Origin: Shigella phage ESh19
Sequence record: ON528729
Length of the DNA: 64,000 bases
Reading direction: 5' to 3' (one strand)
Of the stretch, positions 1-61,402 are shown piece after piece; within the stretch, counting starts at the first letter, position 1; each line of letters begins with the position of its first letter. The translations under genes and the position numbers were made by a program. The notes beneath the pieces were generated by a model that was given only the letters and a program-made list of their open reading frames with translations, did no database searches and was not told the DNA's origin.

Positions 1-216
1 ATCAGAGTACTCTTGAGTTTGCTTATCAATACAAACGTCAATCATAGCTTGGTGCATTTCTTTTGTTGTACAACCTTCATAGACACGCTTCATAGCTTCC
101 ATTACAACTTCTGACCAGATAATTCCTCTCTTGTCAGCCCATGAAGCCCATTTATTTAAACGTTCTGGTTCGAATGGTACAATTGTACCGTCTGATTTGC
201 GAATAGTGGTAATCAT
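1..216 (-). CDS. ribonucleotide reductase large subunit, N-terminal ATP-cone fragment (continues beyond window start)
   Basis: Minus ORF starting ATG at 216-214; translation MITTIRKSDGTIVPFEPERLNKWASWA resembles ATP-cone of class I RNR alpha (E. coli NrdA LLVTKRDGSTERINLDKIHRVLDWA). Confidence 0.5.
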   Translation of the reverse strand, partial: MITTIRKSDGTIVPFEPERLNKWASWADKRGIIWSEVVMEAMKRVYEGCTTKEMHQAMIDVCIDKQTQEYSD

Positions 217-235
217 TATATTAAATCCTACAGGT

Positions 236-260
236 GAAAAAGGGTCTCCGAAGAGACCCC
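236..260 (-). terminator. rho-independent terminator (stem GGGTCTC/GAGACCC, loop TTCG, then U-run on minus strand)
   Basis: Perfect 7-bp inverted repeat 242-259 preceded on plus by AAAAA (U-run on minus); sits after stop of 268..603. Confidence 0.6.
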
Positions 261-267
261 TTAGAGA

Positions 268-603
268 TTAAATGCTAAAAATCTTTTTACTTACCCAGAG
301 TTCAACGAACTTCTGTGATACTTTTGTCAGTGAACCTTTAGACATTGCATTCATGTACCAGTAACGCATACCATCATCGAATGCCATATCAAGTTTTTCA
401 CTAACATCATCTTCAAGTCGTGCAATTGAAAAGTTACCACGTACTTTGCAGACAACTCGTCCAAATTTGATATCACTGCGACCTTTGCAATCTTCAGTGT
501 ACATTACAAAGTCACCATGACGGAGTGTCTCACCAAACTTATCAGTGCCTAGTTCTTCACCAGCTTTGATTTCTTCTTTAGTTAACTTTTTAATTTTAGA
601 CAT
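268..603 (-). CDS. hypothetical protein (111 aa)
   Basis: ORF track; same strand and tight spacing with neighbours. Confidence 0.5.
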   Translation of the reverse strand: MSKIKKLTKEEIKAGEELGTDKFGETLRHGDFVMYTEDCKGRSDIKFGRVVCKVRGNFSIARLEDDVSEKLDMAFDDGMRYWYMNAMSKGSLTKVSQKFVELWVSKKIFSI

Positions 604-922
604 GATATCTATCCAAGTTTCGTTTCAAGTAAATCCACTGGTCATCTGTGCGCTCTACACCCATGAACAGTGGGGCTACAACAACTTTACCAAAAGTATT
701 TCTGTGCTGGCAAATCTCGTAAGAGTACGGTTTATCAATATTTAAGCCATACTTATACAACACTGCTGCTAATACTTGTTCATTATCCAGAATCGTTTCT
801 GGCTTCTCTCCGTACTTGTCTAACAGTGAATCATTCATAAACACTGTCATAGAGAGGTTGTAGTTGGAGAAGTGGCTTTTTGCCACCACTTCTTCACCTT
901 TATTAATGTTCTGTGAATCCAT
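596..922 (-). CDS. hypothetical protein (108 aa)
   Basis: ORF track; overlaps neighbours by a few nt as in phage operons. Confidence 0.5.
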   Translation of the reverse strand: MDSQNINKGEEVVAKSHFSNYNLSMTVFMNDSLLDKYGEKPETILDNEQVLAAVLYKYGLNIDKPYSYEICQHRNTFGKVVVAPLFMGVERTDDQWIYLKRNLDRYHV

Positions 923-1658
923 TATAACCGACTCCTTTCAACCACTGCTTGAGGTTGATTGCATCATAATTCAATTTCGGATATGAGGTTACATGGAACT
1001 TCTCACCATCATAGTACACAATATCCGCAAGCCATAATCCATTCTCACGGCAGAAGTCTTTATCTGCTTTTGAAGAGATTGGTTCAACTTTAGAAAAGTT
1101 TTTAATGCCAAGACTACCAAGACTTCCAATCAGTCCTTGGCAGATAACGCATGTGTCAGATGTTACCACAAATAATTCTTTTGCGTCAACTTCTGCAATA
1201 AAACTTTCAAGTTGAACTTTTGGAAGATTAGACTGTTTCATAATCTTACCATCAGACTTGCGAATAATCGCAAACCACTCTTTACCTTCGATGATTGATT
1301 GACGCAGGTAACATTCATCACCAGTACGTTTCTCAATATCAAACATTCGCTGTAAAGCTTCTTGATAGTCGTCTGTGTATTTGAGGTTGTTGTTTTCACA
1401 AACAGCCTTGATAGCACCATCATGGTCATGTTGTGTCAGGAAAATTAAACCGTCAAGTACATACTGCAAATCAGCTTGAGCATCAAGGGTCTCAACAGGG
1501 TCTTTGGATTCTACTGCTGCGACTAACTCTCTAGCTTCTTCAAGCATACACAGAGATTGACTTTTCAGTGATTCCCAATACTCTGTGCTGTATGGTTCTT
1601 TTGGATTATTGCCACAACGTAGATTCCAATTTTTTACGGATTCTCTGGAATTAAACAT
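903..1658 (-). CDS. hypothetical protein (251 aa); weak MazG-like motif (LEEARELVAAVE ... LQYVLDGLIF)
   Basis: ORF track; motif similarity only. Confidence 0.45.
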   Translation of the reverse strand: MFNSRESVKNWNLRCGNNPKEPYSTEYWESLKSQSLCMLEEARELVAAVESKDPVETLDAQADLQYVLDGLIFLTQHDHDGAIKAVCENNNLKYTDDYQEALQRMFDIEKRTGDECYLRQSIIEGKEWFAIIRKSDGKIMKQSNLPKVQLESFIAEVDAKELFVVTSDTCVICQGLIGSLGSLGIKNFSKVEPISSKADKDFCRENGLWLADIVYYDGEKFHVTSYPKLNYDAINLKQWLKGVGYNGFTEH

Positions 1659-1888
1659 TAAGCCTCCTTATCTTCAAACAACTTTTGTTGAGACTCAATA
1701 TAGTCCATTCGTTCTTTGAGTTCAACACGTTTGCTTAACAGATGTTGAATTTGTGATTCCAGAGCATCCATCTCAGCTTCTGTAGCTGACTTAGCTTTGC
1801 TGATAGTTTCCTTCAGTGCTGCTACGCCACTCTGGATTTTAGAAACATGGTCATTTTTGATTTTATTAAACATTTTAAACTCTCTCAT
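1658..1888 (-). CDS. hypothetical coiled-coil protein (76 aa)
   Basis: ORF track. Confidence 0.4.
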   Translation of the reverse strand: MREFKMFNKIKNDHVSKIQSGVAALKETISKAKSATEAEMDALESQIQHLLSKRVELKERMDYIESQQKLFEDKEA

Positions 1889-2375
1889 TAAGTTTCATGA
1901 TTTTAGTGATTCTCTTCTCAGCTTCATCATAAGTCTCTTTTGTAAGAAACTTGATTGCTGCAATGTTCGCATTGTAGAAGAGTCGAAGCTTAGAGTCAAT
2001 CCTTTTTGTCATGACGTCAAACTTATGTTGTAGGTTAGCTTCGCCATAAACCAAGCCACCTCGCGTATAGTAAGTCTGGATGATGTAGAAGTCAAACTCT
2101 TTTTCACCAAAAGATTCAATATCCTTCTTAATGTATTCAGAAGATGTTTGATAAGTCATCCAATCACTTTCTTTTGTCACGACTTTACGTCTGGTCTTTC
2201 CAGCAACCTTTCTCTTAGTGACGTTATTAAATTGTTTCTTTCCAATATAATATTGTCCAGTTTTCTTACAGTATACTAAATAGACAAAACCAAAATAGTT
2301 AGCGGGGTCAATTTCCCCGCACAGTGAAATCCAATGTCCATAAACAGGGCAATTTCCAAATCCTTTAATCTTCAT
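1875..2375 (-). CDS. GIY-YIG family endonuclease (166 aa)
   Basis: Motif GFVYLVYCKKTGQYYIGKK (GIY ... YIG spacing), downstream conserved R/E/N; RBS GGGAG before ATG. Confidence 0.6.
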   Translation of the reverse strand: MKIKGFGNCPVYGHWISLCGEIDPANYFGFVYLVYCKKTGQYYIGKKQFNNVTKRKVAGKTRRKVVTKESDWMTYQTSSEYIKKDIESFGEKEFDFYIIQTYYTRGGLVYGEANLQHKFDVMTKRIDSKLRLFYNANIAAIKFLTKETYDEAEKRITKIMKLNERV

Positions 2376-3405
2376 TCATAACTGGCTCCCAATTGTATTT
2401 TTTAAACGTAAAATCATCTTTAGGATTTCGTTCTTGATAAGCAATCCAGAAGTGCTGCTCCATTAGTTCTAGTGGAGTTCTTGTCACAATCTGACCATCC
2501 CACGATTCATAAGTATATGACTCTTTCTTAGCATAAAGTTCATAGATTGCGTCTAAGCACTCTTTGTAGGTAGTTTTACCTTCCAGTGCATTCATCACCG
2601 CAACTTTACCAGCACCTTTTAAACCGAAGTAGTTATCTGCATTATCACCTGCTACAGCTTGATAGCAGAGGAATTTAAAACCTACCCCGACTGTCTTCTT
2701 AGCTTTCGGTTTAGATTTGATAGGGCAATCCCAAATCTCACCAACGTTATTATCTGCAATGAAAATTAATGGAGATTTCTCGTAAGTCATATCAATACAG
2801 TAAGTTCCTTCAGCTTGACGAAGGTCTTTATCAATACTCATCAGAGCAGCTTTTTTACCCATCTTCTCAGCTTTTGCAATAACGATAGAGTCTGCTTCGA
2901 AGCCCCCCTTTAGGAGCTTAAACTCTGGTCGTGACAGAAGATACTCACGACAAGCAACTAGGTGTGTAGGTGTTACAGCTTCTTTTCTGTTACCTTGGTA
3001 TTGGTGTTCAAGACCTTTGATATCCTTGTGTTTGTGAACACCTTTCTCAGTAAGGTAACCCATCCATTTGCGTTCTTTACCAACGACTTTCAACCACTCC
3101 TGAAGAACTTGCTGTGTAGCCATAATTGCTTCAGCTTCACTCTTAGCTTCTTTCCAAGTCTGTCTTTCCCATTCATCTTCATCAAAGTCAAGTCCTAACT
3201 CTTCAGTTAAAACTCTTTGGTCAGACAACCATTGTGCTGCCAGTTTTGCACTATCAAAAGCGTCGGATTCTTCAGCAGTGATTTTATTCACATACTTGTA
3301 CTTTGCTTTTTCAACTACACAAGCACCTTTGTAAGCAATGCTATCAGAGTCAATAAAGACGTGTGTAACGCTCTCTGGGAGCTTTGTTAAGGTGTATTGT
3401 TCCAT
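2365..3405 (-). CDS. 5'-3' exonuclease / flap endonuclease (FEN/RNase H-like)
   Basis: VFIDSDSIAYKGA matches N-terminal nuclease motif of 5' nucleases; GDNADNYFGLKGAGKVA matches H3TH motif; start refined to ATG 3405 with RBS GGAGAG (upstream ATGs lie inside terminator hairpin). Confidence 0.6.
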   Translation of the reverse strand: MEQYTLTKLPESVTHVFIDSDSIAYKGACVVEKAKYKYVNKITAEESDAFDSAKLAAQWLSDQRVLTEELGLDFDEDEWERQTWKEAKSEAEAIMATQQVLQEWLKVVGKERKWMGYLTEKGVHKHKDIKGLEHQYQGNRKEAVTPTHLVACREYLLSRPEFKLLKGGFEADSIVIAKAEKMGKKAALMSIDKDLRQAEGTYCIDMTYEKSPLIFIADNNVGEIWDCPIKSKPKAKKTVGVGFKFLCYQAVAGDNADNYFGLKGAGKVAVMNALEGKTTYKECLDAIYELYAKKESYTYESWDGQIVTRTPLELMEQHFWIAYQERNPKDDFTFKKYNWEPVMNED

Positions 3406-3420
3406 TGTACTCTCCATACG

Positions 3421-3450
3421 AAAAAGCCCCATACGTCTGTACAGGGCTTT
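3421..3450 (-). terminator. terminator-like hairpin (AAAGCCC...GGGCTTT, U-run on minus)
   Basis: Inverted repeat between stop of 3468..4328 and start of downstream gene. Confidence 0.4.
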
Positions 3451-3467
3451 GTAGTAGTTACTGACTA

Positions 3468-4328
3468 TTACTCGTCGTCAGTTTCGAAATCATCTTCGTC
3501 GTCATCATCTGGGTTTGGTAGGTCGTCATCATCGTCATCACCACCTTTACCTTCATCACCAGAATCTTTTGCATCTTCTTCAGTGATTTCACCGTTATCT
3601 TCAACACCCGCAAGGCCAAGCATTGCCAGTTCATCTTCATCCAGTTCGGTTTCAGTAGCACCACCAGTACCACCAGTGTAAGGAACCAGAGTATCAATGA
3701 TGAATTGTTCCTGAATTGGCTTGGTCAGAACGTTACCTTCAAAAGTGTAGAAGTGAGTCGCCAGAATCACACTACCAAATGAACCGTTACCGACTGCAAT
3801 ATCTGGATGAATTACATCGTAAGTCTTGTCATCATCATGTTTGTCAGATTTTGCTGCCTTGATTTTCTTCATAGGCTGCTTAACTGCAACACGTTTACCG
3901 TTGATTTCTTCAACCAGCATTACAGGGAAACTCTGTTTTGCTGACCAAACAGCACCATCTTTGTATGCTGCTGAACGGCTAACCTTCAGGATGTGATAGG
4001 TTTCAGCTTCGAATGGAGGCTCACAACCAAACTTCTCTTCGAAGTCATCTGCATCAACAGCCTCTGTAGTAACTTTATCCCAACCTTCAGGATTCTTCTT
4101 AGTCTTGGTGAACTCTTTAAAGAGCTTGTTACCATCTTTTGCCAGAATTGAAACGCTGTAGTTACAATCTTTGCCCGGAAAATGCTTATCCACAGATTTA
4201 CCCTTTTGAGGGCGTGGAATAGTGTTCAGGTAATAGAACCAAACATCTTTCAGCAGGTAACGCAGAGTCTCACGTTCTTGACCATTGTACTTCTCTACCG
4301 GAGCTTTCATTTTAACAACTTTAGACAT
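3468..4328 (-). CDS. putative ssDNA-binding protein (acidic C-terminal tail)
   Basis: C-terminus DDDDDDLPNPDDDDEDDFETDDE typical of phage SSBs; located beside primase-helicase and exonuclease; RBS AAGAGG. Confidence 0.4.
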   Translation of the reverse strand: MSKVVKMKAPVEKYNGQERETLRYLLKDVWFYYLNTIPRPQKGKSVDKHFPGKDCNYSVSILAKDGNKLFKEFTKTKKNPEGWDKVTTEAVDADDFEEKFGCEPPFEAETYHILKVSRSAAYKDGAVWSAKQSFPVMLVEEINGKRVAVKQPMKKIKAAKSDKHDDDKTYDVIHPDIAVGNGSFGSVILATHFYTFEGNVLTKPIQEQFIIDTLVPYTGGTGGATETELDEDELAMLGLAGVEDNGEITEEDAKDSGDEGKGGDDDDDDLPNPDDDDEDDFETDDE

Positions 4329-4379
4329 TTTAATACCTCTTTCTCAAATTAACTTTTAACTCAACTATCAAGGAGTACA

Positions 4380-4408
4380 ATCTTACAGACTTCGTACTCC
4401 CTTGTCAA
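4380..4408 (-). promoter_or_regulatory. sigma70-like promoter (TTGACA-N17-TAAGAT) for SSB-like gene
   Basis: Minus-strand reading of 4380-4408. Confidence 0.5.
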
Positions 4409-4413
4409 ATACT

Positions 4414-4551
4414 TTAAGCAGATTTCTTAGCTGCTTTACGAGCCGTCTTACCTGTACGTACCCGCTTCTGTACATAGTGTTCAGCAGATTTACCAGCAGT
4501 TGCTTTCATGGAATCGCCAAATACTTTCTCGAATGCTTTAGAATGTTTCAT
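4414..4551 (-). CDS. small basic protein (45 aa, Lys/Arg-rich), not in ORF track
   Basis: ATG at 4551 with RBS GGAGAG 5 nt upstream; translation MKHSKAFEKVFGDSMKATAGKSAEHYVQKRVRTGKTARKAAKKSA. Confidence 0.35.
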   Translation of the reverse strand: MKHSKAFEKVFGDSMKATAGKSAEHYVQKRVRTGKTARKAAKKSA

Positions 4552-4829
4552 GAATCTCTCCGATATATTTCATATTCAAAATGTTTATTAGTCAAGGTAA
4601 AGATGTAAACTGTGGACAAATTATCAATTGCTAATGCAAACATCTCAACATTGTCTTTTGATATATGTTCAAACTTTACTTTATGTCCCTTGTTGATGAG
4701 TACTTTACCGAACTGTTCTATCTTAGTCAAGCACTCATTTACAAATTTTTCTCTACTTTCTTCTGAATAGAAGGGTTCAAAACCCTCCTTCAGATAACTA
4801 TCAATCAGTTTCGAACGGACAGTCATCAT
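4548..4829 (-). CDS. hypothetical protein (93 aa)
   Basis: ORF track. Confidence 0.45.
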   Translation of the reverse strand: MMTVRSKLIDSYLKEGFEPFYSEESREKFVNECLTKIEQFGKVLINKGHKVKFEHISKDNVEMFALAIDNLSTVYIFTLTNKHFEYEIYRRDS

Positions 4830-6792
4830 TATCCTCGTTAATCACAGGTGGAATGGTAGAACTTTCACGTTGCTCTTGTGTGTAAATCTCTCCAGATTCA
4901 CGGTCAAAATCAACATCTTCATAGTGTGGCATAGAGTCATCGTAATGGTCTTCAGCCTCACCAATACCAAACTGCTGACGAATATTCTCTGCTGCACCAT
5001 CAATATCAACACCACATCCAGCAGCCTTTACAAGACGACCTGTATCTGGATTATACCAAGTGTGACCAGCAATACCAGTTGATTTACCATGACGACGACA
5101 TTTCGTTAACTTGATTTTTGTCAAGTTCTTTTTAACAGGGTCTGGGTCAACCTTGTTACGCATAAGCAAAATGTTGTTCATGGAAATCTGGAAGTATGCA
5201 CCAGAACCCTTGATATCTTCTTCAGAAATATCACCACCTTCAGAGTTGGCCTTTTGACCACCTGCACTCTTACGAACGTGACACACGTTTACCTGAGCAT
5301 ACTGGTAACGCTTACAGCGACGAAGTAACTCAGACAGAACTTCCTCTTCATCTGTATCAGAGCGTGACAGCGCCAATGTAATAGGGTCAAGGATGATAAT
5401 CTTACAATCAAGACTGTTAACCAGATAGTCAACAAACTCCAGCAGGTTATCTTGGTCAATTGCCCCTTGGTGGTCTACGATGTGAATACGACGACCTTTT
5501 GACAACTCAGCATGTGCAACCTTAATCTCATCCCAATTACGCTCATCGTAAGGAATCTCTGAAATCTGCTTACTAAGATGGATTGCACAGAGCATTTCCA
5601 TAAGTTCTTCGTAAGTATCTTCTACAGGAATTACACCGATGTTGTACTCAGTATCTTTCCATGCTTTGTAAATCATCTCACGAGTATATGCAGATTTACC
5701 TACAGATGAAGGTGCAGCAAGGGTTGTAATCTCACCTAAACCATACCCGCCATAAGTCAGCTTATTCAAATCCCCGAAAGAATCTGGGAAAGGAATTAAA
5801 GGAATCTGACCACGATTCTTCATAGCATCGAAACCATCTGCAAAGTTCTTGATACCAGCAGGGCAGTAACGAGGTGCATTGTAGATTCGTTGTTTAAATC
5901 CTTCTAAGACTGTATCTTTGTCTTTGAAGAACTTAGTCCACCACTCACTAAGGTCTTTAATACCTTCAGGATACTGGAACAGTCTTACTTTCTCAATAGG
6001 TAAGATACCAGCAGCTTCCTTAGTTGCTTTAGCCCCTGCTTCATCATTATCAAAGCATAGGTAAATCTCATCAAAGGAAGTAATATACTGATAGTTCTCT
6101 TTGATAGACTTAACATTAGCACCAGATGGTACAGAAACGTGGCAGTAATTCTTACGTCTAGACTTATCTTTAATTGCTAAAGAAGTCATGTAGATTGCTG
6201 TAGCACATTCCATCTCACCTTCCCAGATGAAAAGACGGTTACCACCTTCTGGAGCAATCCATGAACCGAACATAGCCAGTTCACCTTTAATATCTCCGAC
6301 ACCACCAGAAAAGTCTTTCAACTTCCCACGTAAGTGCTCTTTGTGATAGTCATCTGGATATTTGTGACGAACACGATAACCTACATGTTGCAACTTACCA
6401 TCTTCATCTTTTTTGTATGTTGGATAGAAATGTGCATCAATGTCGCCATTATCGTCAATATCAACTTTAATACCAAGACGCTCAAGGACTTTTGCAGGAA
6501 TCTTCCTGTCTTTTAAATCCATTGCTTCTAGGTTTTCTTTCACATCATCCAAATCCATACCACGAAATGTACGGTTTTTATTCTCTGAACCTGAAGTATG
6601 AGTACTCACAATCTGCCCTTTATCAAAATCCCACTCTGGAAAACCTTTTCCACAACTGAAACATGTCATTGAATATGAACCGTCATCATGACGATATATA
6701 GAACCTGCATCTGAAGATAAACATTGAGGGCGTGGACATGCACAGTGACCTACAAATGTTCCAGCATCTTTCAGTTTTCTCTGTTTAGCCAT
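4801..6792 (-). CDS. DNA primase/helicase (T7 gp4-like fusion)
   Basis: N-terminal Cys cluster (CACPRPQC...CFSC) zinc ribbon, TOPRIM-like region, C-terminal DnaB-like Walker A LAAPSSVGKS and Walker B IIILD; RBS AAGAGGTG. Confidence 0.8.
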   Translation of the reverse strand: MAKQRKLKDAGTFVGHCACPRPQCLSSDAGSIYRHDDGSYSMTCFSCGKGFPEWDFDKGQIVSTHTSGSENKNRTFRGMDLDDVKENLEAMDLKDRKIPAKVLERLGIKVDIDDNGDIDAHFYPTYKKDEDGKLQHVGYRVRHKYPDDYHKEHLRGKLKDFSGGVGDIKGELAMFGSWIAPEGGNRLFIWEGEMECATAIYMTSLAIKDKSRRKNYCHVSVPSGANVKSIKENYQYITSFDEIYLCFDNDEAGAKATKEAAGILPIEKVRLFQYPEGIKDLSEWWTKFFKDKDTVLEGFKQRIYNAPRYCPAGIKNFADGFDAMKNRGQIPLIPFPDSFGDLNKLTYGGYGLGEITTLAAPSSVGKSAYTREMIYKAWKDTEYNIGVIPVEDTYEELMEMLCAIHLSKQISEIPYDERNWDEIKVAHAELSKGRRIHIVDHQGAIDQDNLLEFVDYLVNSLDCKIIILDPITLALSRSDTDEEEVLSELLRRCKRYQYAQVNVCHVRKSAGGQKANSEGGDISEEDIKGSGAYFQISMNNILLMRNKVDPDPVKKNLTKIKLTKCRRHGKSTGIAGHTWYNPDTGRLVKAAGCGVDIDGAAENIRQQFGIGEAEDHYDDSMPHYEDVDFDRESGEIYTQEQRESSTIPPVINEDNDDCPFETD

Positions 6793-6985
6793 TCACACCT
6801 CTTCGTTGTAGTTCTGCCTTAAGACCGTTTTCAATCTTATCAAGCTCATGGATTTCTTCTGCAATCTCTTTCCTTCTTGAAGCGACCCTTTCAAGTCGCT
6901 CCATCATAACTTCTTTGGAAAGAGATGAGAGTTCCACTGTACGGTGGTCAATTACTTTAAAGTTATTCTCTCTCATCTTCAACAC
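6785..6985 (-). CDS. hypothetical protein (66 aa)
   Basis: ORF track; RBS AAGGTG. Confidence 0.45.
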   Translation of the reverse strand: MLKMRENNFKVIDHRTVELSSLSKEVMMERLERVASRRKEIAEEIHELDKIENGLKAELQRRGVNG

Positions 6986-6988
6986 CTT

Positions 6989-7729
6989 TTATAGATTGAT
7001 AATGGTTTTAAGTTTACTCTCTAACTCTTCCATCGTTCCGTTATTCTGGATAATATCACGGGAGAAGTTAGTGGAGATACCACGTTCAGAGCTATGGGAA
7101 GCCACCTGAATAGCATCTTTTCTTGTAATCTCAATTATCTGGCTATCATAGCTTTGAAGGAACTCAGCTTCAATATCAAATCTTAAATCACATACCAGTG
7201 CAATACCTATGTGACTTTTCTTAACGCAATCACCATAGAATTTTTCAATACGTTCTGCCAAATCTGTAATCCAGAAACGCTCTCCAAGAATTTTACGGAT
7301 AACCTCACTACCCCAGACTTGCTGTATTTGTCTTGAGGAAATCATATATTCATTTTTCAAACCAAGCTTTGTAAGCAATGTTGGCTTACCAACTTTCTTT
7401 AACTCTTTGATAAGTCTGTCTGTGATTTCCCCACAAAGTTTTGCATCATCTTGTATACCCTTGCTTTTCATGTTTATATTGAAAGCCCATGCCACACGAG
7501 AGTTAAGGTTGTCAAAATCTAAGCTAAACTTTTTAGGCGTTTCTTTCGTATCACCATATAGGTCGTGCCAGTTTAAGTCAAAGATAAACCCAGCAGTTGC
7601 TTTTAAGTTATCGGCAAACGCAAACACTTTAACAGTGTATCCAGCCTCATTCAATAGATTTTTTACAATGCTGCAAGACGTATCCTTTCCAGAACGAGCT
7701 TTTCCAGTAAATGCAATAACACTTTTCAT
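6989..7729 (-). CDS. deoxynucleoside monophosphate kinase
   Basis: MKSVIAFTGKARSGKDT matches T4 gp1 dNMP kinase P-loop (MKLIFLSGVKRSGKDT); start refined to ATG 7729 with RBS GGAGTGA. Confidence 0.6.
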   Translation of the reverse strand: MKSVIAFTGKARSGKDTSCSIVKNLLNEAGYTVKVFAFADNLKATAGFIFDLNWHDLYGDTKETPKKFSLDFDNLNSRVAWAFNINMKSKGIQDDAKLCGEITDRLIKELKKVGKPTLLTKLGLKNEYMISSRQIQQVWGSEVIRKILGERFWITDLAERIEKFYGDCVKKSHIGIALVCDLRFDIEAEFLQSYDSQIIEITRKDAIQVASHSSERGISTNFSRDIIQNNGTMEELESKLKTIINL

Positions 7730-7786
7730 ATCGTTCACTCCATAATAAAAAGCCCCCAATTAAGGAGGCTGAAGGGTATGCCACAA

Positions 7787-8581
7787 TTATTGTAGTTGAG
7801 AACCAGTGAGTTCACGCTCAGACATTGCTTCTAGCTGCTGAACAAACTCTTCACCGAAGTTGATTGCAATCTTGGTGCTAAGGACTGCTGCACCAGTTTG
7901 GCTAAATACATCCCCTAGTGCTGCTGTATGAGCACCTTGTGAAATGCTCTCTACAAAGCTTGGGTCAGACTCTAACATTTTTGACACTTCAAGTAAAGCA
8001 TGAATACCCATGATACTAAAGATAGCGTTTAACAGTGAAGTTACCTTAACCTGAATAGGGTCTAAAGAGAGACCATTAGTAATCTCTGACAGCTTATTCA
8101 TTGTCTCATCAGCGTACTGAATTGCCTTGTCAGAGACTTCATCAAAGCCCCAATCCAGTTTTGCATAACGTGGTGACTTATCATTCATACGCTTCTCTAG
8201 CGATGCCATTACAGCAGCAACTGGTGTACAAATACCTTTCAGAAGGTCTTCATCACTCATGTTATCAAGCTCTTTAATACCCTTCTCAGTAATCTGGATG
8301 TATCCACCTGAATACATTTCATCAAAGATGTATGTTGCAAAGGCATCAACACCAATGAGGATGGTTTTCAGAGCATCAGTCTTATTAGCCAGCAGGTATT
8401 CAACCTCTTTACGGAAATCTTCGTCATTCTCTACAGCGTTTTCTACAACACGCAGAGATTCAGGGATAAATTTTCCTGACAGTGAGTTGCTACGCATAAT
8501 GATAGCAAGAGTCTCAACAGTGTTCAGCATGAATGCTTCGTCAATACCTTTTTCTTCCAGAATCTCATTTACAGTTTTCAT
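7787..8581 (-). CDS. hypothetical protein (264 aa)
   Basis: ORF track. Confidence 0.5.
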   Translation of the reverse strand: MKTVNEILEEKGIDEAFMLNTVETLAIIMRSNSLSGKFIPESLRVVENAVENDEDFRKEVEYLLANKTDALKTILIGVDAFATYIFDEMYSGGYIQITEKGIKELDNMSDEDLLKGICTPVAAVMASLEKRMNDKSPRYAKLDWGFDEVSDKAIQYADETMNKLSEITNGLSLDPIQVKVTSLLNAIFSIMGIHALLEVSKMLESDPSFVESISQGAHTAALGDVFSQTGAAVLSTKIAINFGEEFVQQLEAMSERELTGSQLQ

Positions 8582-9005
8582 CTTTAATCTCTCTCATTTT
8601 GTTAATAGTAAGTCGTGATAATCTTAAGCTTTCTTGTGAAGAGAAGTCAAGTCCTTTTTCAGACCGTGGGAAGTAATTTCTGTCCCAAGTATTCTCTGCA
8701 TCCTGAAGCAGTTGGGATAGACTATCTAAGTCCGTTCCATTTTGCAACTTATTTTTTAAGGTATCTATCAAAAAGATTGTGTCTTTCGCTTTACGTCTTT
8801 CTGAAGATATCTCTTTCATGTGCTCAAATACCGAGCACTTTAAACCTTCGTCATATCCACTTGATAGTTCTATCTCATGCTGAACATCAACCATTCGACG
8901 ATGTTGATAAGCATACTCCTTCTGAGCCTCAATGTAAAGTGCTTCAACTTTTTCTAAAGCTTGGACAAGGTTATTGATATCTGGGTGAACGTACATCCTC
9001 TGCAT
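8565..9005 (-). CDS. hypothetical protein (146 aa)
   Basis: ORF track; RBS AGAGG. Confidence 0.5.
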   Translation of the reverse strand: MQRMYVHPDINNLVQALEKVEALYIEAQKEYAYQHRRMVDVQHEIELSSGYDEGLKCSVFEHMKEISSERRKAKDTIFLIDTLKNKLQNGTDLDSLSQLLQDAENTWDRNYFPRSEKGLDFSSQESLRLSRLTINKMREIKDENCK

Positions 9006-9264
9006 GATTGCCTCTGTTAAGTATCTATAAAGATTTTAATCTCTTATCTTTATGTATGTTATACATATAACTTTAAAGATTTTTAAAAGCTATTAAAAAT
9101 CTTTTAAGACTTTTAAAGAAACTGTATAGTTAATCTATAAAGGGAGTCTATTAAGATAAAACCCACTTCGAAAAGACTAACACCTTGTCAAGTAGTTTGT
9201 CAACTTGCTTTTTGAAGAAAATTGCTGTAGGGTATTATCCAGAATGATTTGAGAGGGAGTAAAA

Positions 9265-11964: not shown

Positions 11965-12025
11965 TAGTGTTGACAAGGTGCTCATGGAAGAGTACCTTAT
12001 ACTATATATTATATAGGAGACTTGT

Positions 12026-12226: not shown

Positions 12227-12432
12227 GCCATCGTGGAAGAACTCATCTCGCTATGATGCAAGGTGCTTCAAAAGAGACTATCAAGAATCGGAAGAAAACT
12301 CTTTTTGACAGAATGAATAGACTCATTGATAATGCGAGCCTACCTAACTCTGAAAAGGTTTTCTTGAAAGGGAATCTGAAGAGTATTGCACAGGAACTTA
12401 TTGACATTGAATTTTGGAGACACCAAAAATGA
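12223..12432 (+). CDS. hypothetical protein (69 aa)
   Basis: ORF track. Confidence 0.45.
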   Translation: MSHRGRTHLAMMQGASKETIKNRKKTLFDRMNRLIDNASLPNSEKVFLKGNLKSIAQELIDIEFWRHQK

Positions 12433-12680
12433 GCAATAAAGAGCAAGAAGCTTTAGCAATCTTCAAGAGCGAAGACAAATCAATAGCTTTTGTCTCAGAG
12501 GCTTGGTGCAGGGATTTGGGGTATGATTGGTATATCTTCTTATGCGCTAAGAAAGATGTTAAACCAGTTGATGAAACCCGATTCAAAGAACTGTATACTA
12601 TCTGCCAAGAGGGTTATGAAGAACATTACGAAGGTTCTTTGAATCCTGTAAATTCAAAAGCTTCAGATTTATTTTATTGA
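12429..12680 (+). CDS. hypothetical protein (83 aa)
   Basis: ORF track; start refined to ATG 12429 (ATGA overlap with previous stop, GGAGA upstream). Confidence 0.45.
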   Translation: MSNKEQEALAIFKSEDKSIAFVSEAWCRDLGYDWYIFLCAKKDVKPVDETRFKELYTICQEGYEEHYEGSLNPVNSKASDLFY

Positions 12681-12690
12681 GAGGTTTAAA

Positions 12691-12936
12691 ATGTTAAAAT
12701 TATTGATACCAGCTTTAGCAGTCCTACTGGTTGGGTGTAACCCTTCTTATGAGAATAAGGATGCTTCTTACAGACTTCCTCCAGAAATGCAAGACTGCAA
12801 GATTTATAAGCTTAATGGTGATGCCATTAGCAGGGATGTTATTGTAGTTCGCTGCCCAAATTCTCAGACGACAACTTCTTACAAGTATGGGAAGAATAGT
12901 CAGTCACACGCCACAGTTTTTGATGAGGGATATTGA
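12691..12936 (+). CDS. small lipoprotein (81 aa)
   Basis: Signal peptide ending in lipobox LLVGC (MLKLLIPALAVLLVGCNPS). Confidence 0.5.
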   Translation: MLKLLIPALAVLLVGCNPSYENKDASYRLPPEMQDCKIYKLNGDAISRDVIVVRCPNSQTTTSYKYGKNSQSHATVFDEGY

Positions 12937-12937
12937 T

Positions 12938-13144
12938 ATGCAGGTTCTGGTAAACTTTATCTATAAGTATGAAAACATCTTCAGCACTATGACTGTAGCT
13001 CAACGCAATCCAGTTATTCCCCGAGAAGGGGAGACTGTTGAGATTAATGATTGGAACTACAGAGTTGAAGAGGTCAAGCATAAACTTAAAGATGGTTATG
13101 ACCACCAAGTTGTAAATGTGTATTTAAAAGGTAAGTGGCAATGA
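12938..13144 (+). CDS. hypothetical protein (68 aa)
   Basis: ATG at 12938 immediately after previous stop. Confidence 0.4.
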   Translation: MQVLVNFIYKYENIFSTMTVAQRNPVIPREGETVEINDWNYRVEEVKHKLKDGYDHQVVNVYLKGKWQ

Positions 13145-13383
13145 GTAGAGAAGACCAGTTAATTGATATGCAAAATGACAAAAATGAGGCAATATCCATA
13201 ATCCCAATATTGTGGGGGCATGACTGCACATATGGTAACTATCTGTGTGTTTGTGAAGACCGAAACATTGAACCCGTAAGCCGTGATGAGTATCAAAAAC
13301 ACTTAAAGGCTCTTGACAATTACTTCACAGATAATAAATGCTCTCAGATTTCAAGTGAGGTCTTGCATGAAGATTTTTATTAA
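13141..13383 (+). CDS. hypothetical Cys-rich protein (80 aa)
   Basis: ORF track (start refined to ATG). Confidence 0.4.
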   Translation: MSREDQLIDMQNDKNEAISIIPILWGHDCTYGNYLCVCEDRNIEPVSRDEYQKHLKALDNYFTDNKCSQISSEVLHEDFY

Positions 13384-13464
13384 AGTTATTGATGAAGATT
13401 TTGGAGGGTGCTCTTGGCACTCATTTTTCACAAAAGGTTGTCTAGCTTGTGAGGCACGTAATAA

Positions 13465-14565
13465 ATGACAATTCTGTACAAACAAAACAAAGATGGTTCT
13501 TTCAACGTCTGGTCATGTGTTGCTGTAGGTGATAAAGTCGTCACAACTTATGGTAAAGAAAATGGCAAGATGATGTTTGAAGAGTACACAGCAGAACCTA
13601 AGAACATCGGTAAAAAGAATGAGCGTAATGCTGAACAGCAAGCTCTCTTTGAAGTTGCTGCTAAGTACAAGAAGCAGGTTGACCGTAAAGGATATGCTTA
13701 CACAAAATCTGAAGCAGAGAATGTTGAGAAGGTTGGTGTACAGCTTGCTCAGGATGCTTCCAAGATAAGTCACAAGAAGTATCTGGTATTCCCTGCCGAT
13801 GCTCAACCTAAACTTGATGGTGTTCGTTGCAGGATTTCAAGAGATGCTGACTCAGAAAGTTTTACGGCATATTCTCGTGAGAACACGGTATACAACATTC
13901 CTGTAGAGTTGATTCCTGATGTTCTTCTTATGCTGAAACTGCACAAAGATGTTGAGGATTTCGACGGGGAGATTTATGCTCATGGTTGGGACTTGGAAGA
14001 TATTGTATCTATGATTAAGAATGCTGACAATCCAGACCGTCACCTTCTTAAATTCTACTGGTATGATATCTGTGACAAGACTAAATCTTGGCCTGAGCGT
14101 CGTGAAGTTATTGATAATTCACCAATCGTTGAACTCGGTGATGCTTGCAGGGTTGTACCTGTTCAGACAATCCGTGTTAACTCTTGGGAAGAATTTGATA
14201 ATGCTCATGACAACTGGGTTAAACTCAAGTTTGAAGGGGCAATGTATCGGTCAATCTCACCAGATTCGTTCTATGAGTGTGGTCATCGCTCTTACTTCCT
14301 GATTAAGCACAAGAAGATGCACACACAGGAATTTAAAGTAACTGGTGTAAAGACTGATAAACGTGGTCATGGTAAGTTCGTTGTAGAGACTCTTCCTAAC
14401 GTCTTTGTAGATGTTTCATGGAAAACTACACACGAGAAGAAAAAGTATCTTGCTGAACATCCTGAAGAGTTTATCGGGAAGCCTTTAACGGTTCAGTTCC
14501 AGAAGATGACTCGTAAGGGTTCTTTACAGTTCCCTGTTGGGCTAGTAATTCGAGATTATGAATAG
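13465..14565 (+). CDS. ATP-dependent DNA ligase (T7-like size)
   Basis: Motif I PKLDGVRC (KxDGxR), motif IV EGAMYRS, motif V FLIKHKK; 366 aa. Confidence 0.7.
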   Translation: MTILYKQNKDGSFNVWSCVAVGDKVVTTYGKENGKMMFEEYTAEPKNIGKKNERNAEQQALFEVAAKYKKQVDRKGYAYTKSEAENVEKVGVQLAQDASKISHKKYLVFPADAQPKLDGVRCRISRDADSESFTAYSRENTVYNIPVELIPDVLLMLKLHKDVEDFDGEIYAHGWDLEDIVSMIKNADNPDRHLLKFYWYDICDKTKSWPERREVIDNSPIVELGDACRVVPVQTIRVNSWEEFDNAHDNWVKLKFEGAMYRSISPDSFYECGHRSYFLIKHKKMHTQEFKVTGVKTDKRGHGKFVVETLPNVFVDVSWKTTHEKKKYLAEHPEEFIGKPLTVQFQKMTRKGSLQFPVGLVIRDYE

Positions 14566-15189: not shown

Positions 15190-15393
15190 ATGAAGAAGAA
15201 CATCTGTAGAACAGACTATGGTGAAGTGGTCGATGATGACGGAGTAGTTATTTACAGAGTTTGGGCTAATGATTTTGCAACCGTTGTAGAGTCTTTAGAT
15301 AACTACATCAATGGGACTCGTGAAAACGTCAGAGCAACTAATCTTGATTCGTTAATAGACACTTCTCGAAAACGGAGAAAGAAAGATGAATGA
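15190..15393 (+). CDS. hypothetical protein (67 aa)
   Basis: ORF track. Confidence 0.4.
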   Translation: MKKNICRTDYGEVVDDDGVVIYRVWANDFATVVESLDNYINGTRENVRATNLDSLIDTSRKRRKKDE

Positions 15394-15685
15394 AGTCTTT
15401 GACCCATATGCACCTCAAGATTCTTGGGAGGCTGATAGAGAGGCTGAAATGGAGAGTTATGTCTGTCCAATGGATATAGAAGAGATGAAAGACTTTGTAT
15501 CTTTCAGATTCTCTAAAGAGATTGAGAAGCTAAAACTTTCTCAGGCTCAAGTAGCAACTGTTTGTGAAATCTCACAGAGTCGTGTGTCAAATATCATTAA
15601 CGACCCTCAAAAGATTTCTTTAGAGTACATGCTTAATGCTTGTACAAAACTTGGTGTAAATTTTAACTTAAGGCTGGCAGATTAA
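15386..15685 (+). CDS. helix-turn-helix (XRE-like) DNA-binding protein
   Basis: C-terminal LSQAQVATVCEISQSRVSNIIN resembles HTH_XRE. Confidence 0.4.
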   Translation: MNEVFDPYAPQDSWEADREAEMESYVCPMDIEEMKDFVSFRFSKEIEKLKLSQAQVATVCEISQSRVSNIINDPQKISLEYMLNACTKLGVNFNLRLAD

Positions 15686-51162: not shown

Positions 51163-51531
51163 ATGAAGGCAAAGAGTGGAAAAGACTTTTATTGCTTCCT
51201 ACAATCTTATGTCCAAAGTGTTCAAGAAGGTGACAGGTATAATCTTGATGATGTACTTCCGACACCCTTAACATGGCGTGATAGCAAATGGCCTGAGAAG
51301 GATATCAACCCTACCGAAACATATTCAGAATACACACCTAAAATTCCTCTACCAGATACTGAAGAACTTCTATATCCGATGTTCCATATTGTGGGTCTTG
51401 GTACATTTTTGATGGATATTCAATATGTGATGGGTAAAGGCTATAAGATTGACGGAGTTGTTGTAGGTGATGTTTCACCGCAGCACAAAGGTTATTTTAG
51501 ACTAAATGCAAGATTAGAGGCTAAGAAATGA
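51163..51531 (+). CDS. hypothetical protein (122 aa), paralog of N-terminal domain of next gene
   Basis: Shared pattern K.YPDFKEF..F...V..G.RY......LP.T.....WPE.DI...T...YTP....P..EELLY with 51528..52412. Confidence 0.5.
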   Translation: MKAKSGKDFYCFLQSYVQSVQEGDRYNLDDVLPTPLTWRDSKWPEKDINPTETYSEYTPKIPLPDTEELLYPMFHIVGLGTFLMDIQYVMGKGYKIDGVVVGDVSPQHKGYFRLNARLEAKK

Positions 51532-52412
51532 TTAAAGCAAAGACATATCCAGATTTTAAAGAGTTCGTTAAAGACTTTGTAGCGAATGTTAAAGCTGGCA
51601 AAAGATACGACTTCAGAAAGTATCAAGAGGCCGTTCTGCCTCTGACATATAGCTCACCGTGGCCTGAGTCTGATATTCCAGAAGTTACTGACTTCAATTA
51701 CACACCAGACTACACAGTTCCATTTAGCGAAGAACTTTTATATTCAGTTGGTGCTCAGATGAGGACTGCTGACTTCTTCATGGACTTGCAGTATGCAATC
51801 ATCAATGGGAAGGATGTTGACACAGTTTATTGTGAATGGTTGGCAAGGGTTAAACCTTTCTCCATGCTTAATGCAAAGTTGAAGGATGCAATCACACCTC
51901 CAGTTATTACACAGCAGCCAACTGACCAAACTGTTAACGAGGGTGGAACACTTACACTTTCAGTTGTTGCTACTGGTGCAACTGGTTATCAGTGGAAGAA
52001 AGGTGCATCAAACATCTCTGGAGCAACCTCTGCAACATATACTAAGAATGGCGTAGTCCCTACTGATGCTGGCGCATACACCTGTGTAGTTTCTGGTGAA
52101 GGTGGCTCAAGTGTTAATTCCAACGCTGCCACAGTAACTGTGAATGCACTGCCTGTGATTACACAGCAACCTACTAACCAAGAGATTACAGAGGGAGGTA
52201 CACTCACCCTTAGCATCGTAGCCACTGGTGCAACTGGTTATCAGTGGAAGAAAGATGATGTAGATATCCCTTCAGCAACATCTGCAACATATGAAAAGAC
52301 ACCGACTTCTAAAGCTGATGATGAAGGTACTTACTCTTGTGTTGTAACTGGTGTAGGTGGCTCAATCACATCCCAATCTGCCAAGGTGGTTATTAACGCA
52401 GTAGGAGGTTGA
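51528..52412 (+). CDS. protein with two Ig-like repeats (294 aa)
   Basis: Tandem repeats PVITQQPT.Q...EGGTLTLS.VATGATGYQWKK ... TSATY ... Y.CVV.G.GGS typical of Ig-like domains. Confidence 0.55.
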   Translation: MIKAKTYPDFKEFVKDFVANVKAGKRYDFRKYQEAVLPLTYSSPWPESDIPEVTDFNYTPDYTVPFSEELLYSVGAQMRTADFFMDLQYAIINGKDVDTVYCEWLARVKPFSMLNAKLKDAITPPVITQQPTDQTVNEGGTLTLSVVATGATGYQWKKGASNISGATSATYTKNGVVPTDAGAYTCVVSGEGGSSVNSNAATVTVNALPVITQQPTNQEITEGGTLTLSIVATGATGYQWKKDDVDIPSATSATYEKTPTSKADDEGTYSCVVTGVGGSITSQSAKVVINAVGG

Positions 52413-52879
52413 TAATGCAACTCTCAAGTAAAGGCTTAGAAGCCATTAAGTTCTTTGAAGGGCTTCGCTTAGAAGCCTATAAAGACTCTGCTGGAATCCC
52501 TACAATTGGTTATGGAACAATCCGTATCAACGGAAGACCTGTAACAATGGGGATGAAGATTACTGCTGAACAAGCTGTTCAATATCTCCTTGCAGATGTT
52601 GAAAGTTATGTAGGTGCAGTAAACAGAGCAATTAAGGTTCCGACTACGCAGAACGAATTTGACGCACTTGTTGTAGAGACTTACAACATTGGTATTGGTG
52701 CTATGCAGGATTCAACTTTTATCAAGCGTCACAATGCTGGTAACAAAGCTGGTTGTGCAGAAGCTATGCAGTGGTGGAACAAGATTACAGTGAATGGTCA
52801 AAAAGTAACTTCCAAGGGTCTACAAAATAGACGTAGTTTGGAAGCCAAGATTTACCTTGACGCTGTTTATCCAAAATAG
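52409..52879 (+). CDS. endolysin, GH24 (T4 lysozyme-like) muramidase
   Basis: LEAIKFFEGLRLEAYKDSAGIPTIGYGT matches catalytic region of phage lysozymes; 156 aa. Confidence 0.75.
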   Translation: MIMQLSSKGLEAIKFFEGLRLEAYKDSAGIPTIGYGTIRINGRPVTMGMKITAEQAVQYLLADVESYVGAVNRAIKVPTTQNEFDALVVETYNIGIGAMQDSTFIKRHNAGNKAGCAEAMQWWNKITVNGQKVTSKGLQNRRSLEAKIYLDAVYPK

Positions 52880-52917
52880 TAGATTAAGAGGCTCCTTCGG
52901 GAGCCTTTTTTATTTCT

Positions 52918-61207: not shown

Positions 61208-61245
61208 TTAGTGATTCTCCAGTTTAGGAAGTTGCCTTTTGAAGA

Positions 61246-61274
61246 TACTATATAGATATGATTAGACCTTTGCA
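61246..61274 (-). promoter_or_regulatory. early promoter TTGCAA-N17-TATAGT
   Basis: Minus-strand reading. Confidence 0.5.
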
Positions 61275-61402
61275 AGTACTTTTACGCTTATCTATAAAGA
61301 ATCTATTAAGTTAATCCCTTTTAGATAAACCCCCTCGAACAAAGTTACACTTGTCAAGGGGCATTGTCAATAGTTTTTCAAAAGATTTTTATAAGTTGTT
61401 GA

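What the first reader, a model, noticed from the sequence alone, without database searches (positions are those of the whole stretch)
9170..9210. Tandem TTGACA boxes and a recurring TTGACAAGG(TG) motif at strand-switch regions
The minus-strand reading of 9181-9205 gives TTGACAAACTACTTGACAAGGTG. The same TTGACAAGGTG core is at 11970 on plus, TTGACAAGG at 4401 on minus, and doubled TTGACA boxes recur at 50043-50060 and 61335-61355 on minus. Some copies lack a properly spaced -10, so these may be binding sites for a regulator or sigma-appropriating factor rather than plain promoters.
Basis: seen in the sequence. Interest (0 to 1): 0.4.

Follow-up and report, generated by a model that had tools for sequence, protein, structure and literature searches.

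The report
Phage promoters with doubled -35 boxes
Three promoters of this Felix O1-like phage carry a second, strictly conserved copy of the host RNA polymerase "-35" recognition hexamer inside the promoter spacer, a layout that recurs in unrelated T4-like phages and whose purpose is unknown.

Summary
The window is from a Felix O1-like virulent phage (Ounavirinae, Mooglevirus; 97-98% identical to Escherichia phage 3HA14). The tandem TTGACA boxes are real. They occur three times, all on the minus strand: 9203/9191, 50060/50048 and 61370/61357.

In every case the upstream box is followed after 17-18 bp by a TAnnnT hexamer. Across relatives only the three middle bases of that hexamer vary, which is the signature of a host sigma-70 promoter. 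The downstream box lies in the spacer and never has a -10 of its own. Even so, it is a perfect TTGACA in essentially all orthologues, while the bases between the boxes drift.

The same layout (TTGACA-N5/6-TTGACA-N5/6-TAnnnT, total spacer 17) is conserved upstream of the late sigma factor gene of T4-like aquatic phages: 56 of 66 distinct sequences. There the two gaps compensate each other.

The extension "TTGACAAGG(TG)" is neither above chance nor conserved. Only two of the five cited sites lie at strand switches. I found no sigma-appropriation genes.

Best reading: these are ordinary early promoters that carry a selected second sigma-region-4-type site. That site may be re-engaged at promoter escape, but this role is inferred, not shown.

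The parts
9198..9203 (-). Site A, box 1: TTGACA, the -35 hexamer of the promoter for the minus-strand replication and nucleotide-metabolism unit (orthologue of the Felix O1 gene 97 side)
   Evidence: Perfect in 7/7 orthologous loci and in Felix O1.
9186..9191 (-). Site A, box 2: second TTGACA inside the spacer (about -24 to -19)
   Evidence: Invariant in relatives while the 6 nt between the boxes vary (aactac, aatcac, aagcac, aataac, attcac, atgcac). No TAnnnT at 16-18 bp.
9174..9179 (-). Site A, -10 hexamer TAGTCT, 18 bp after box 1 and preceded by TGt. Predicted start near 9167.
   Evidence: TAGTCT or TAATCT in all relatives; T, A and T are invariant. The start site is inferred.
9006..9167 (-). 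Site A leader of about 160 nt, conserved (89% mean identity). It starts with GGGTTTTATCTTAAT and is dense in CTTNNNAG words.
9205..9233 (+). Back-to-back DNA polymerase promoter: TTGCTT (9205-9210), 17 bp spacer, TAGGGT (9228-9233). Its -35 lies 1 bp from box 1.
   Evidence: Read. Relatives keep TTGCTT-N17-TAnnnT (TAATGT, TAGTGT). Inferred, no mapping of the start site.
50055..50060 (-). Site B, box 1 (-35) of the promoter heading the gene-41-like, tRNA and morphogenesis unit
   Evidence: Perfect in 27/27 full-length orthologous loci.
50043..50048 (-). Site B, box 2 in the spacer
   Evidence: Invariant, while the bases between the boxes vary (ttcctc, aagtac, aaggac, agggga, agcctc, aatgac, aagcac).
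50032..50037 (-). Site B, -10 hexamer TAGCCT, 17 bp after box 1
   Evidence: Relatives have TAGGCT, TAGTGT, TAAGTT or TAGCCT. This corrects the N15 TATAGG assignment made for Felix O1 P41 (PMC3185647).
61365..61370 (-). Site C, box 1 (-35), inside the early small-gene block
   Evidence: 11 of 12 orthologues are perfect and one reads TTGACG.
61352..61357 (-). Site C, box 2, 13 bp after box 1
   Evidence: Perfect in all orthologues.
61342..61347 (-). Site C, -10 hexamer TAACTT, 17 bp after box 1. The extra base between the boxes is offset by a 4-nt gap before the -10.
   Evidence: Relatives have TAACTT, TAGATT, TAATGT or TACATT.
61208..61335 (-). Site C leader, paralogous to the site A leader (GGGGGTTTATCTAAAAGGGATTAACTTAATAGATTCTTTATAGA)
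4380..4408 (-).
   Evidence: Felix O1 has TTGACA-N17-TAGAAT at the same place, with a different extension.
11970..11998 (+).
   Evidence: Conserved in Felix O1 and, as TTGACA-N17-TATCTT, in Erwinia phage Pistou.

Best explanation
SHOWN OR STRONGLY SUPPORTED. The three doubled boxes are host sigma-70 (housekeeping) promoters of a Felix O1-like phage. The upstream TTGACA is the -35 element. A TAnnnT hexamer 17-18 bp downstream is the -10. An A-rich tract lies upstream. The promoters head the replication and nucleotide-metabolism unit (site A), the gene-41, tRNA and structural unit (site B) and an early small-gene unit (site C). The second TTGACA lies mid-spacer, about -24 to -17. It is not a promoter of its own, but it is kept by selection. 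The layout recurs independently in T4-like phages.

INFERRED. Box 2 has exactly the specificity of sigma region 4, including the preferred C before it. Its position floats by one base pair relative to both box 1 and the -10. It is therefore most likely read by RNA polymerase itself. After 11-13 bp of forward movement, which is the point of promoter escape, sigma region 4 would sit over box 2. Docking there would modulate clearance, or cause a promoter-proximal hold or retention of sigma. What that hold serves is unknown.
For: Identity of the phage.

Box 1 with a -10: TAnnnT lies 16-18 bp after box 1 in 33/33 distinct Ounavirinae sequences and 56/56 T4-like sequences. It lies after box 2 in 0/89. 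Only the nnn bases vary.

Same frame as the phage's single-box promoters.

Conservation found by orthology, not by pattern search: site A 7/7 loci, site B 27/27, site C 11/12 with both boxes perfect. Felix O1 keeps all three sites. Box columns are invariant in 36/36 cases against 5/19 for the columns between the boxes. That set was collected with perfect boxes; including L046 gives 35/36.

Spacer compensation: the gaps (box 1 to box 2, box 2 to -10) are (6,6), (6,5) and (7,4) here. In T4-like phages they are (6,5) 27 times and (5,6) 27 times, always summing to a 17 bp spacer.

Independent lineage: 56 of 66 distinct regions upstream of a gp55-like gene carry the double box. In a pattern scan of viral contigs, total spacers of 17 bp are over-represented: 15:49:27:7 for 16:17:18:19 bp, against 1:2:2:1 expected.

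Precedent: sigma-70 region 4 binding a -35-like element causes an extra pause at +14/+15 at phage 82 PR', possible only before RNA longer than 15 nt displaces region 4 (PMC3326312).
Against: No transcription start site, footprint or activity data exist for any of these promoters; three literature searches found none.

There is no -10-like pause element 17 bp after box 2, so the analogy with lambdoid PR' pauses is incomplete.

A second -35 hexamer might simply compete with the productive register.

The orthologue of site A in Erwinia phage Pistou works with a single box (TTGACA-N17-TACATT), so box 2 is not essential for a promoter at that position.

The pattern-scan hits are not fully independent, because one large family dominates them.
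Confidence: 0.6

Rival explanations
1. The two hexamers form an operator. A phage or host DNA-binding protein binds the tandem TTGACA repeats, overlapping the -35 and the spacer, and switches these three head-of-unit promoters off or on during infection.
For: Box 2 is conserved without a -10. Only three promoters of about fifteen carry it, and they head major units. The phage encodes an HTH_3 regulator at 15386-15685. How transcription is timed in Felix O1 is unknown (PMC3185647).
Against: The box 1 to box 2 distance varies from 11 to 13 bp, with compensation elsewhere, which is unusual for cooperative dimer sites. The conserved bases are exactly the sigma-70 consensus and nothing beyond it. 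XRE/HTH_3 proteins normally bind inverted repeats, not direct repeats (established knowledge). The same layout occurs in unrelated T4-like phages with different hosts, which argues for a reader common to all of them, namely RNA polymerase. No AsiA, MotA or sigma-like protein was found.
Confidence: 0.2
2. The whole cassette (double-box promoter plus the conserved AT-rich leader) is a transcription-primed replication origin or an RNA-based processivity element. The promoter serves to make a non-coding primer or regulatory RNA, as at T4 oriF/oriG or at the T7 primary origin.
For: The leaders are more conserved than typical intergenic DNA (89% identity) and are AT-rich with dense short repeats. 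Site A lies between the DNA polymerase gene and the replication genes. In Erwinia phage Pistou the only double box fires into a gene-less repeat region. In T4-like phages the double-box promoter is antisense, with no obvious gene to express, and lies next to a helicase gene.
Against: There are three copies per genome. All three window copies sit directly upstream of genes that have ribosome-binding sites. The leader fold shows no net covariation signal (covariation term +0.61). No Rfam family matches. Nothing here explains why a second -35 hexamer would help priming.
Confidence: 0.1
3. These are two overlapping promoters 12-13 bp apart, each box being the -35 of its own promoter.
For: Both hexamers match the consensus perfectly. 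Tandem promoters are common in phages (established knowledge).
Against: 0 of 89 sequences have TAnnnT 16-18 bp after box 2. The hexamers at that position are AAGTGG, GGGGGT and TACTTA/ACACTT, and they are not conserved as -10 elements.
Confidence: 0.04
4. These are sigma-appropriation sites of the T4 MotA/AsiA type, or a chance or relic duplication without function.
For: The phage shares several T4-like genes such as rIIA/B.
Against: There is no MotA-box-like motif at -30, and an intact -35 is retained. No AsiA or MotA domains were found. Chance or relic is excluded by perfect conservation across genera and by recurrence in another lineage.
Confidence: 0.03

Closest known systems
Strong sigma-70 early promoters of virulent coliphages (T5 and T7 A-class; consensus -35, A-rich upstream tract)
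   Same: A perfect TTGACA -35, a 17-18 bp spacer, a TAnnnT -10, an A-tract upstream, placement at the head of early units, and reliance on host RNA polymerase.
   Different: A second perfect -35 hexamer is embedded in the spacer and conserved. The -10 elements are minimal (3 of 6 matches). The initial transcribed sequence (GGGTTTTATCTTAAT) is conserved.
Lambdoid late promoters PR' (lambda and phage 82), which have an extra -35-like element used by sigma region 4 during early elongation
   Same: A phage promoter with a second -35-type hexamer downstream of the true -35. There is experimental precedent that region 4 binds such an element early in elongation and causes a pause at +14/+15 in phage 82 (PMC3326312). 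The 11-13 bp offset here predicts engagement at about +12 to +14.
   Different: No -10-like pause element was found at the matching distance. No Q-like antiterminator was identified. The position of the lambda and phage 82 elements relative to their spacers could not be checked, because the primary papers are not held.
T4 middle promoters (MotA box at -30 plus AsiA; sigma appropriation)
   Same: A phage-specific element upstream of a TAnnnT -10 in a virulent myovirus.
   Different: The -35 is intact and matches the consensus. The extra element is itself a -35 consensus centred near -21, not (a/t)(a/t)(a/t)TGCTTtA at -30. No AsiA or MotA homologues were found.
Direct-repeat activator sites that overlap the -35 (lambda CII TTGC-N6-TTGC; PhoB pho box)
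   Same: Short direct repeats with a period of about one helical turn, overlapping the -35 region.
   Different: Those have a fixed period of 10 or 11 bp and replace or flank a poor -35. Here the period varies from 11 to 13 bp, the repeats are the -35 consensus itself, and the promoter looks constitutive.
Felix O1 'P41' (Whichard et al. 2010, PMC3185647)
   Same: It is the orthologue of site B and was already listed as a putative promoter beginning at the same TTGACA (21515).
   Different: The paper assigned TTGACA-N15-TATAGG and did not note the doubled box. It reported no comparable sequence in the 96-97 intergenic region, where the orthologue of site A lies at 63532. Comparison with relatives supports N17-TAGGCT instead.

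Membership tests
Bacterial sigma-70 (housekeeping) promoter | -35 hexamer close to TTGACA | tested here: met
   Perfect TTGACA at 9203, 50060 and 61370 (minus strand).
Bacterial sigma-70 (housekeeping) promoter | -10 hexamer with T-12, A-11 and T-7, placed 17 +/- 1 bp downstream of the -35 | tested here: met
   TAGTCT (18 bp), TAGCCT (17 bp) and TAACTT (17 bp). TAnnnT is kept in 33/33 relatives, with variation only at the nnn positions.
Bacterial sigma-70 (housekeeping) promoter | Intergenic, oriented toward downstream genes | tested here: met
   All three are intergenic and co-oriented with the downstream genes.
Bacterial sigma-70 (housekeeping) promoter | Transcription starts about 7 nt after the -10 and depends on E-sigma-70 | not testable with these tools
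   No transcription start data for Ounavirinae were found in the held literature.
T4-type middle promoter / sigma appropriation | MotA-box-like element centred at -30 that replaces the -35 | tested here: not met
   The -35 is an intact consensus. The extra element is centred near -21 and is TTGACA.
T4-type middle promoter / sigma appropriation | Phage-encoded AsiA-like and MotA-like proteins | tested here: not met
   A Pfam scan of 44 small ORFs plus 10 others found none. This covers only the 64 kb window, and divergent analogues could be missed.
Lambdoid PR'-type promoter with sigma-dependent promoter-proximal pause | Second -35-like element available to sigma region 4 after initiation | tested here: met
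   Box 2 lies 11-13 bp downstream of box 1.
Lambdoid PR'-type promoter with sigma-dependent promoter-proximal pause | -10-like pause-inducing element in the initial transcribed region | tested here: not met
   No TAnnnT lies 16-18 bp after box 2 in 0/89 sequences. TATCTT-like hexamers at about +8 to +13 are variable.
Lambdoid PR'-type promoter with sigma-dependent promoter-proximal pause | Q-type antiterminator gene and a Q-binding element | not tested
   No Q-like domain appeared among the Pfam hits, but no dedicated search was made.
Tandem (overlapping) promoters | Each -35 has its own -10 at 16-18 bp | tested here: not met
   0/89 for box 2.
Direct-repeat transcription-factor site (PhoB or CII type) | Fixed repeat period (10-11 bp) and a family-specific consensus | tested here: not met
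   The period is 11, 12 or 13 bp with compensating gaps. The consensus is TTGACA, not CTGTCAT or TTGC.

The most novel reading that the evidence does not exclude
Promoters with a second -35 hexamer in mid-spacer form a widespread, undescribed class of phage promoter. It is present in Felix O1-like and T4-like myoviruses and probably in others. In this class the extra hexamer would act as a docking point for sigma region 4 at the moment of promoter escape. That would set clearance, pausing or sigma retention, perhaps to load a processivity factor or to prime replication from the conserved leaders.
Probability: 0.25. Interest if true: 0.7.

Novelty: new variant of a known kind. Interest (0 to 1): 0.45.

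Why it matters
How Felix O1-like phages, which are widely used for Salmonella typing and biocontrol, control transcription is unknown. The 2010 genome paper found no promoters in one of the two divergent control regions. This analysis places conserved host-type promoters at the heads of three transcription units and corrects one earlier -10 assignment.

It also shows that a second -35 hexamer in the spacer is under selection in two unrelated phage lineages. If RNA polymerase itself reads that hexamer, it would be a new, simple cis-element that tunes promoter escape or pausing. That can be tested directly with standard in vitro transcription, and such an element could be used in synthetic promoters.

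Tried and rejected
1. TTGACAAGG(TG) as an extended motif: rejected. It is not above chance and is not conserved in Felix O1 or Pistou.

2. A -10 for box 2: searched at 16-18 bp in 89 sequences and none found.

3. Known RNA families in the leaders: Rfam at gathering thresholds found only tRNAs.

4. A conserved RNA structure in the site A leader: RNAalifold gave a weak fold with no net covariation. One helix (CUUUAY paired with RUAAAG) shows two compensatory changes, but the leader is built from low-complexity words, so I did not rely on it.

5. Sigma-appropriation or other regulators: Pfam and PHROGs found only an HTH_3 protein.

6. Literature on transcription start sites or transcriptomes of Ounavirinae: none found in the held library. 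One search was badly posed and returned only irrelevant papers.

7. The primary papers on the lambda and phage 82 -35-like elements are not held.

I therefore could not compute an enrichment over a control pattern and used only the spacer-length distribution.

9. PhoB, CII and other direct-repeat factor sites: considered from memory and rejected on period and consensus.

10. L117, a 24-mer identical to a Felix-type site in a 6.9 kb contig: it lies inside an ORF, and I did not pursue it.

Full report
WHAT THE WINDOW IS. A 4 kb stretch around the finding is 97-98% identical to Escherichia phage vB_EcoM_3HA14 and to Shigella phages Sf14-Sf18. It is 80-90% identical to more than 200 Felix O1-like phages. 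The window therefore comes from a virulent myovirus of the Ounavirinae (genus Mooglevirus), in reverse orientation relative to Felix O1. Genes run on the minus strand from 1 to 9005. They run on the plus strand from 9265 (DNA polymerase) to 18763. They run on the minus strand from 18801 to 49911 (structural genes and 25 tRNAs). They run on the plus strand from 50302 to 58167, and on the minus strand from 59836 onward. The flagged site lies in the divergent region 9006-9264.

CHECKING THE OBSERVATION. The sequence is as described. TTGACAAGG occurs three times (4400-, 9183-, 11970+) against 0.96 expected, and 12 of 100 shuffles do as well, so the extended motif is not significant. Doubled TTGACA boxes occur three times: 9203/9191, 50060/50048 and 61370/61357. 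All are on the minus strand, with spacings of 12, 12 and 13 bp. A first-order Markov simulation expects 0.55 same-strand pairs within 20 bp, and 1% of simulations reach three. Only sites A (9203) and B (50060) are at strand switches.

THE BOXES ARE PROMOTERS. TTGACA is about 3-fold enriched in intergenic DNA and mostly co-oriented with the genes. About twelve single-box intergenic copies have TAnnnT exactly 16-18 bp downstream (TAAGAT, TACCTT, TATACT, TAAGCT, TATAGT, TAATAT, TAGAGT, TAAAGT), often with an A-tract upstream. This is the phage's standard promoter, and it is of the host sigma-70 type.

The doubled sites fit the same frame when read from the upstream box:
- Site A: TTGACA-aactac-TTGACA-aggtgt-TAGTCT (18 bp spacer).
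- Site B: TTGACA-ttcctc-TTGACA-acgtg-TAGCCT (17 bp spacer).
- Site C: TTGACA-atgcccc-TTGACA-agtg-TAACTT (17 bp spacer).

Both are conserved as promoters in Felix O1, and 11970 also in an Erwinia phage, but with different bases after the hexamer.

COMPARATIVE EVIDENCE. Felix O1, which is about 80% identical overall, keeps all three doubled sites at the orthologous positions (63532, 21515 and 11269). I retrieved orthologous loci through the downstream proteins, so the sample does not depend on the motif. Both boxes were perfect in 7/7 loci for site A and in 27/27 full-length loci for site B. For site C 11/12 loci were perfect, and the exception reads TTGACG in box 1. The bases between the boxes drift freely: 5 of 19 of those columns are invariant, against 36 of 36 box columns, or 35 of 36 counting the exception. 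The -10 varies only at its three middle bases (A: TAGTCT, TAATCT; B: TAGCCT, TAGGCT, TAGTGT, TAAGTT; C: TAACTT, TAGATT, TAATGT, TACATT). This is the expected footprint of sigma region 2. It also argues against the N15-TATAGG assignment given for Felix O1 P41 in 2010. TAnnnT follows box 1 at 16-18 bp in 33/33 sequences and follows box 2 in 0/33. At site A the invariant AAAAAGCAAG upstream of box 1 is also the reverse complement of a TTGCTT -35. That -35 belongs to a back-to-back DNA polymerase promoter (TTGCTT-N17-TAGGGT, 9205-9233), whose TAnnnT is likewise kept in relatives.

BOX 2. Box 2 is conserved and has no -10. Its position floats: the gaps (box 1 to box 2, box 2 to -10) are (6,6), (6,5) and (7,4). 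In site C the extra base between the boxes is offset so that the spacer from box 1 to the -10 stays at 17 bp.

In the more distant Erwinia phage Pistou (genus Kolesnikvirus) the orthologue of site A has a single box (TTGACA-N17-TACATT). One double box does exist there (TTGACA-ttctac-TTGACA-ggggc-TAAAGT), at the entry to a gene-less repeat region. It is followed by the same leader start (GGGTTTTCTCTTAAT) as sites A and C. The double box and this leader therefore travel together in three of four families.

THE LAYOUT RECURS IN AN UNRELATED LINEAGE. Its hits nevertheless favour a total spacer of 17 bp: 15:49:27:7 for 16:17:18:19 bp after clustering, against 1:2:2:1 expected from the pattern. The hits are not fully independent.

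One recurrent family comes from T4-like aquatic myoviruses and lies just upstream of the gp55-like late sigma factor gene. I retrieved 66 distinct upstream regions through the gp55 protein. Of these, 56 carry two perfect TTGACA boxes, 5 carry one and 5 carry none. All 56 have TAnnnT at a total spacer of 17 bp (54 cases) or 18 bp (2 cases), with compensating gaps of (6,5) 27 times and (5,6) 27 times. None has a -10 for box 2. The base before box 2 is nearly always C in both lineages.

So box 1 is the -35, TAnnnT is the -10, and a second hexamer of exactly sigma-region-4 specificity sits mid-spacer with a tolerance of one base pair. This holds in two unrelated phage groups with different hosts.

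MECHANISM. The promoter assignment rests on sequence and comparison with relatives, not on experiment.

They argue against a lineage-specific dimeric regulator. An offset of 11-13 bp means that sigma region 4 would lie over box 2 once the enzyme has advanced 11-13 bp, which is at promoter escape. There is experimental precedent: region 4 binding to a -35-like element causes an extra pause at +14/+15 at phage 82 PR', and this is possible only before RNA longer than 15 nt displaces region 4 (PMC3326312). I therefore favour re-docking of region 4, with effects on clearance, pausing or sigma retention. My confidence in that specific step is about 0.3.

Weaknesses of this view: there is no -10-like pause element at the matching distance, and there are no data.

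The main rival is an operator for a regulator. The phage encodes an HTH_3 protein. It is disfavoured by the variable period and by the recurrence across lineages.

Sigma appropriation of the T4 type is not supported. The -35 is intact, there is no element at -30, and no AsiA or MotA domains were found.

An origin or RNA function for the promoter-plus-leader cassette cannot be excluded.

NOVELTY. Site B's orthologue was listed as a putative promoter in 2010. The doubled architecture, the site A promoter, the conservation and the recurrence in T4-like phages were not described there, nor in the papers I could search. I rate the finding as a new variant of a known kind, of moderate interest.

Noticed in passing
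window 58168-59835 (minus-strand reading): A stretch of about 1.65 kb at the convergent junction has no credible ORF. It corresponds to Felix O1 12305-13928. It is packed with short repeated words: CTTGTTAG/CTTGTTAA/CTGTTAAG, GCTATATAG, CTTAAAAG and ACGTAAAAG. CTTNNNAG occurs 30 times against 1.7 expected. The homologous gene-less region in Erwinia phage Pistou (81700-83106) has similar repeats and is entered by a double-box promoter. It might be a genome end, a replication origin or a non-coding RNA region.
   Followed up: partly
window 9006-9167, 49912-50025, 61208-61334 (minus strand): The leaders downstream of the double-box promoters are built from CTTNNNAG words such as CTTAAAAG, CTTTAAAG, CTTAATAG and CTTTATAG. 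Counts are 6, 5 and 2 against about 0.1 expected per leader. The outer bases (CTT..AG) are kept in relatives while the inner bases vary. This might be a binding vocabulary for a phage protein, or an RNA-level signal.
   Followed up: partly
window 9006-9167 (minus strand); alignment A3 columns 31-36 and 121-126: A predicted long-range helix pairs CUUUAY with RUAAAG. It shows two compensatory changes among 7 sequences: CUUUAU/AUAAAG, CUUUAC/GUAAAG and CUUAAC/GUUAAG. The same G/A column also co-varies within a local hairpin (ATGTAT-AAC-ATACAT against ACGTAT-AGA-ATACGT).
   Followed up: partly
L178-L257 (T4-like aquatic phage contigs), 20-60 nt upstream of the gp55-like gene: The conserved double-box promoter points away from the late sigma factor gene. 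It is antisense to the co-directional gene upstream of it. It would therefore oppose read-through transcription into g55, or produce a non-coding RNA. This could be a timing device for late transcription, or an origin promoter.
   Followed up: partly
window 9205-9233 (+): The predicted DNA polymerase promoter (TTGCTT-N17-TAGGGT) lies back to back with the site A promoter, with the two -35 hexamers 1 bp apart. A similar back-to-back partner (TTGACT-N17-TACCAT, plus strand, about 50083-50111) lies opposite site B.
   Followed up: partly
window 61255-61285 (minus strand): A second promoter-like site (TTGCAA-N17-TATAGT) lies about 80 nt downstream of the site C double box, within its leader and upstream of a 46-aa ORF (61067-61207).
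   Followed up: no
window 60000-64000: The early small-gene block has repeated intergenic cassettes. Each consists of a hairpin (GGGGAGGGAAnnTTCCCC) followed by the ribosome-binding region CCTAAACTGGAGAATC (repeat families D1, D5 and D9).
   Followed up: no
window 47238-47271 and 46903-46977 (minus strand): A tRNA-like 3' half at 47238-47271 (repeat family D2) lies where 3HA14 annotates tRNA-Tyr, but neither ARAGORN nor Rfam calls it in the window. Conversely, Rfam calls a marginal tRNA at 46903-46977 (29.6 bits) that ARAGORN does not.
   Followed up: no
window 4370-4400 (minus strand): The -10 of the 4408 promoter is embedded in an inverted repeat: GGAGTAC, then a loop containing TAAGAT, then GTACTCC. 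The repeat is not kept in Felix O1.
   Followed up: no
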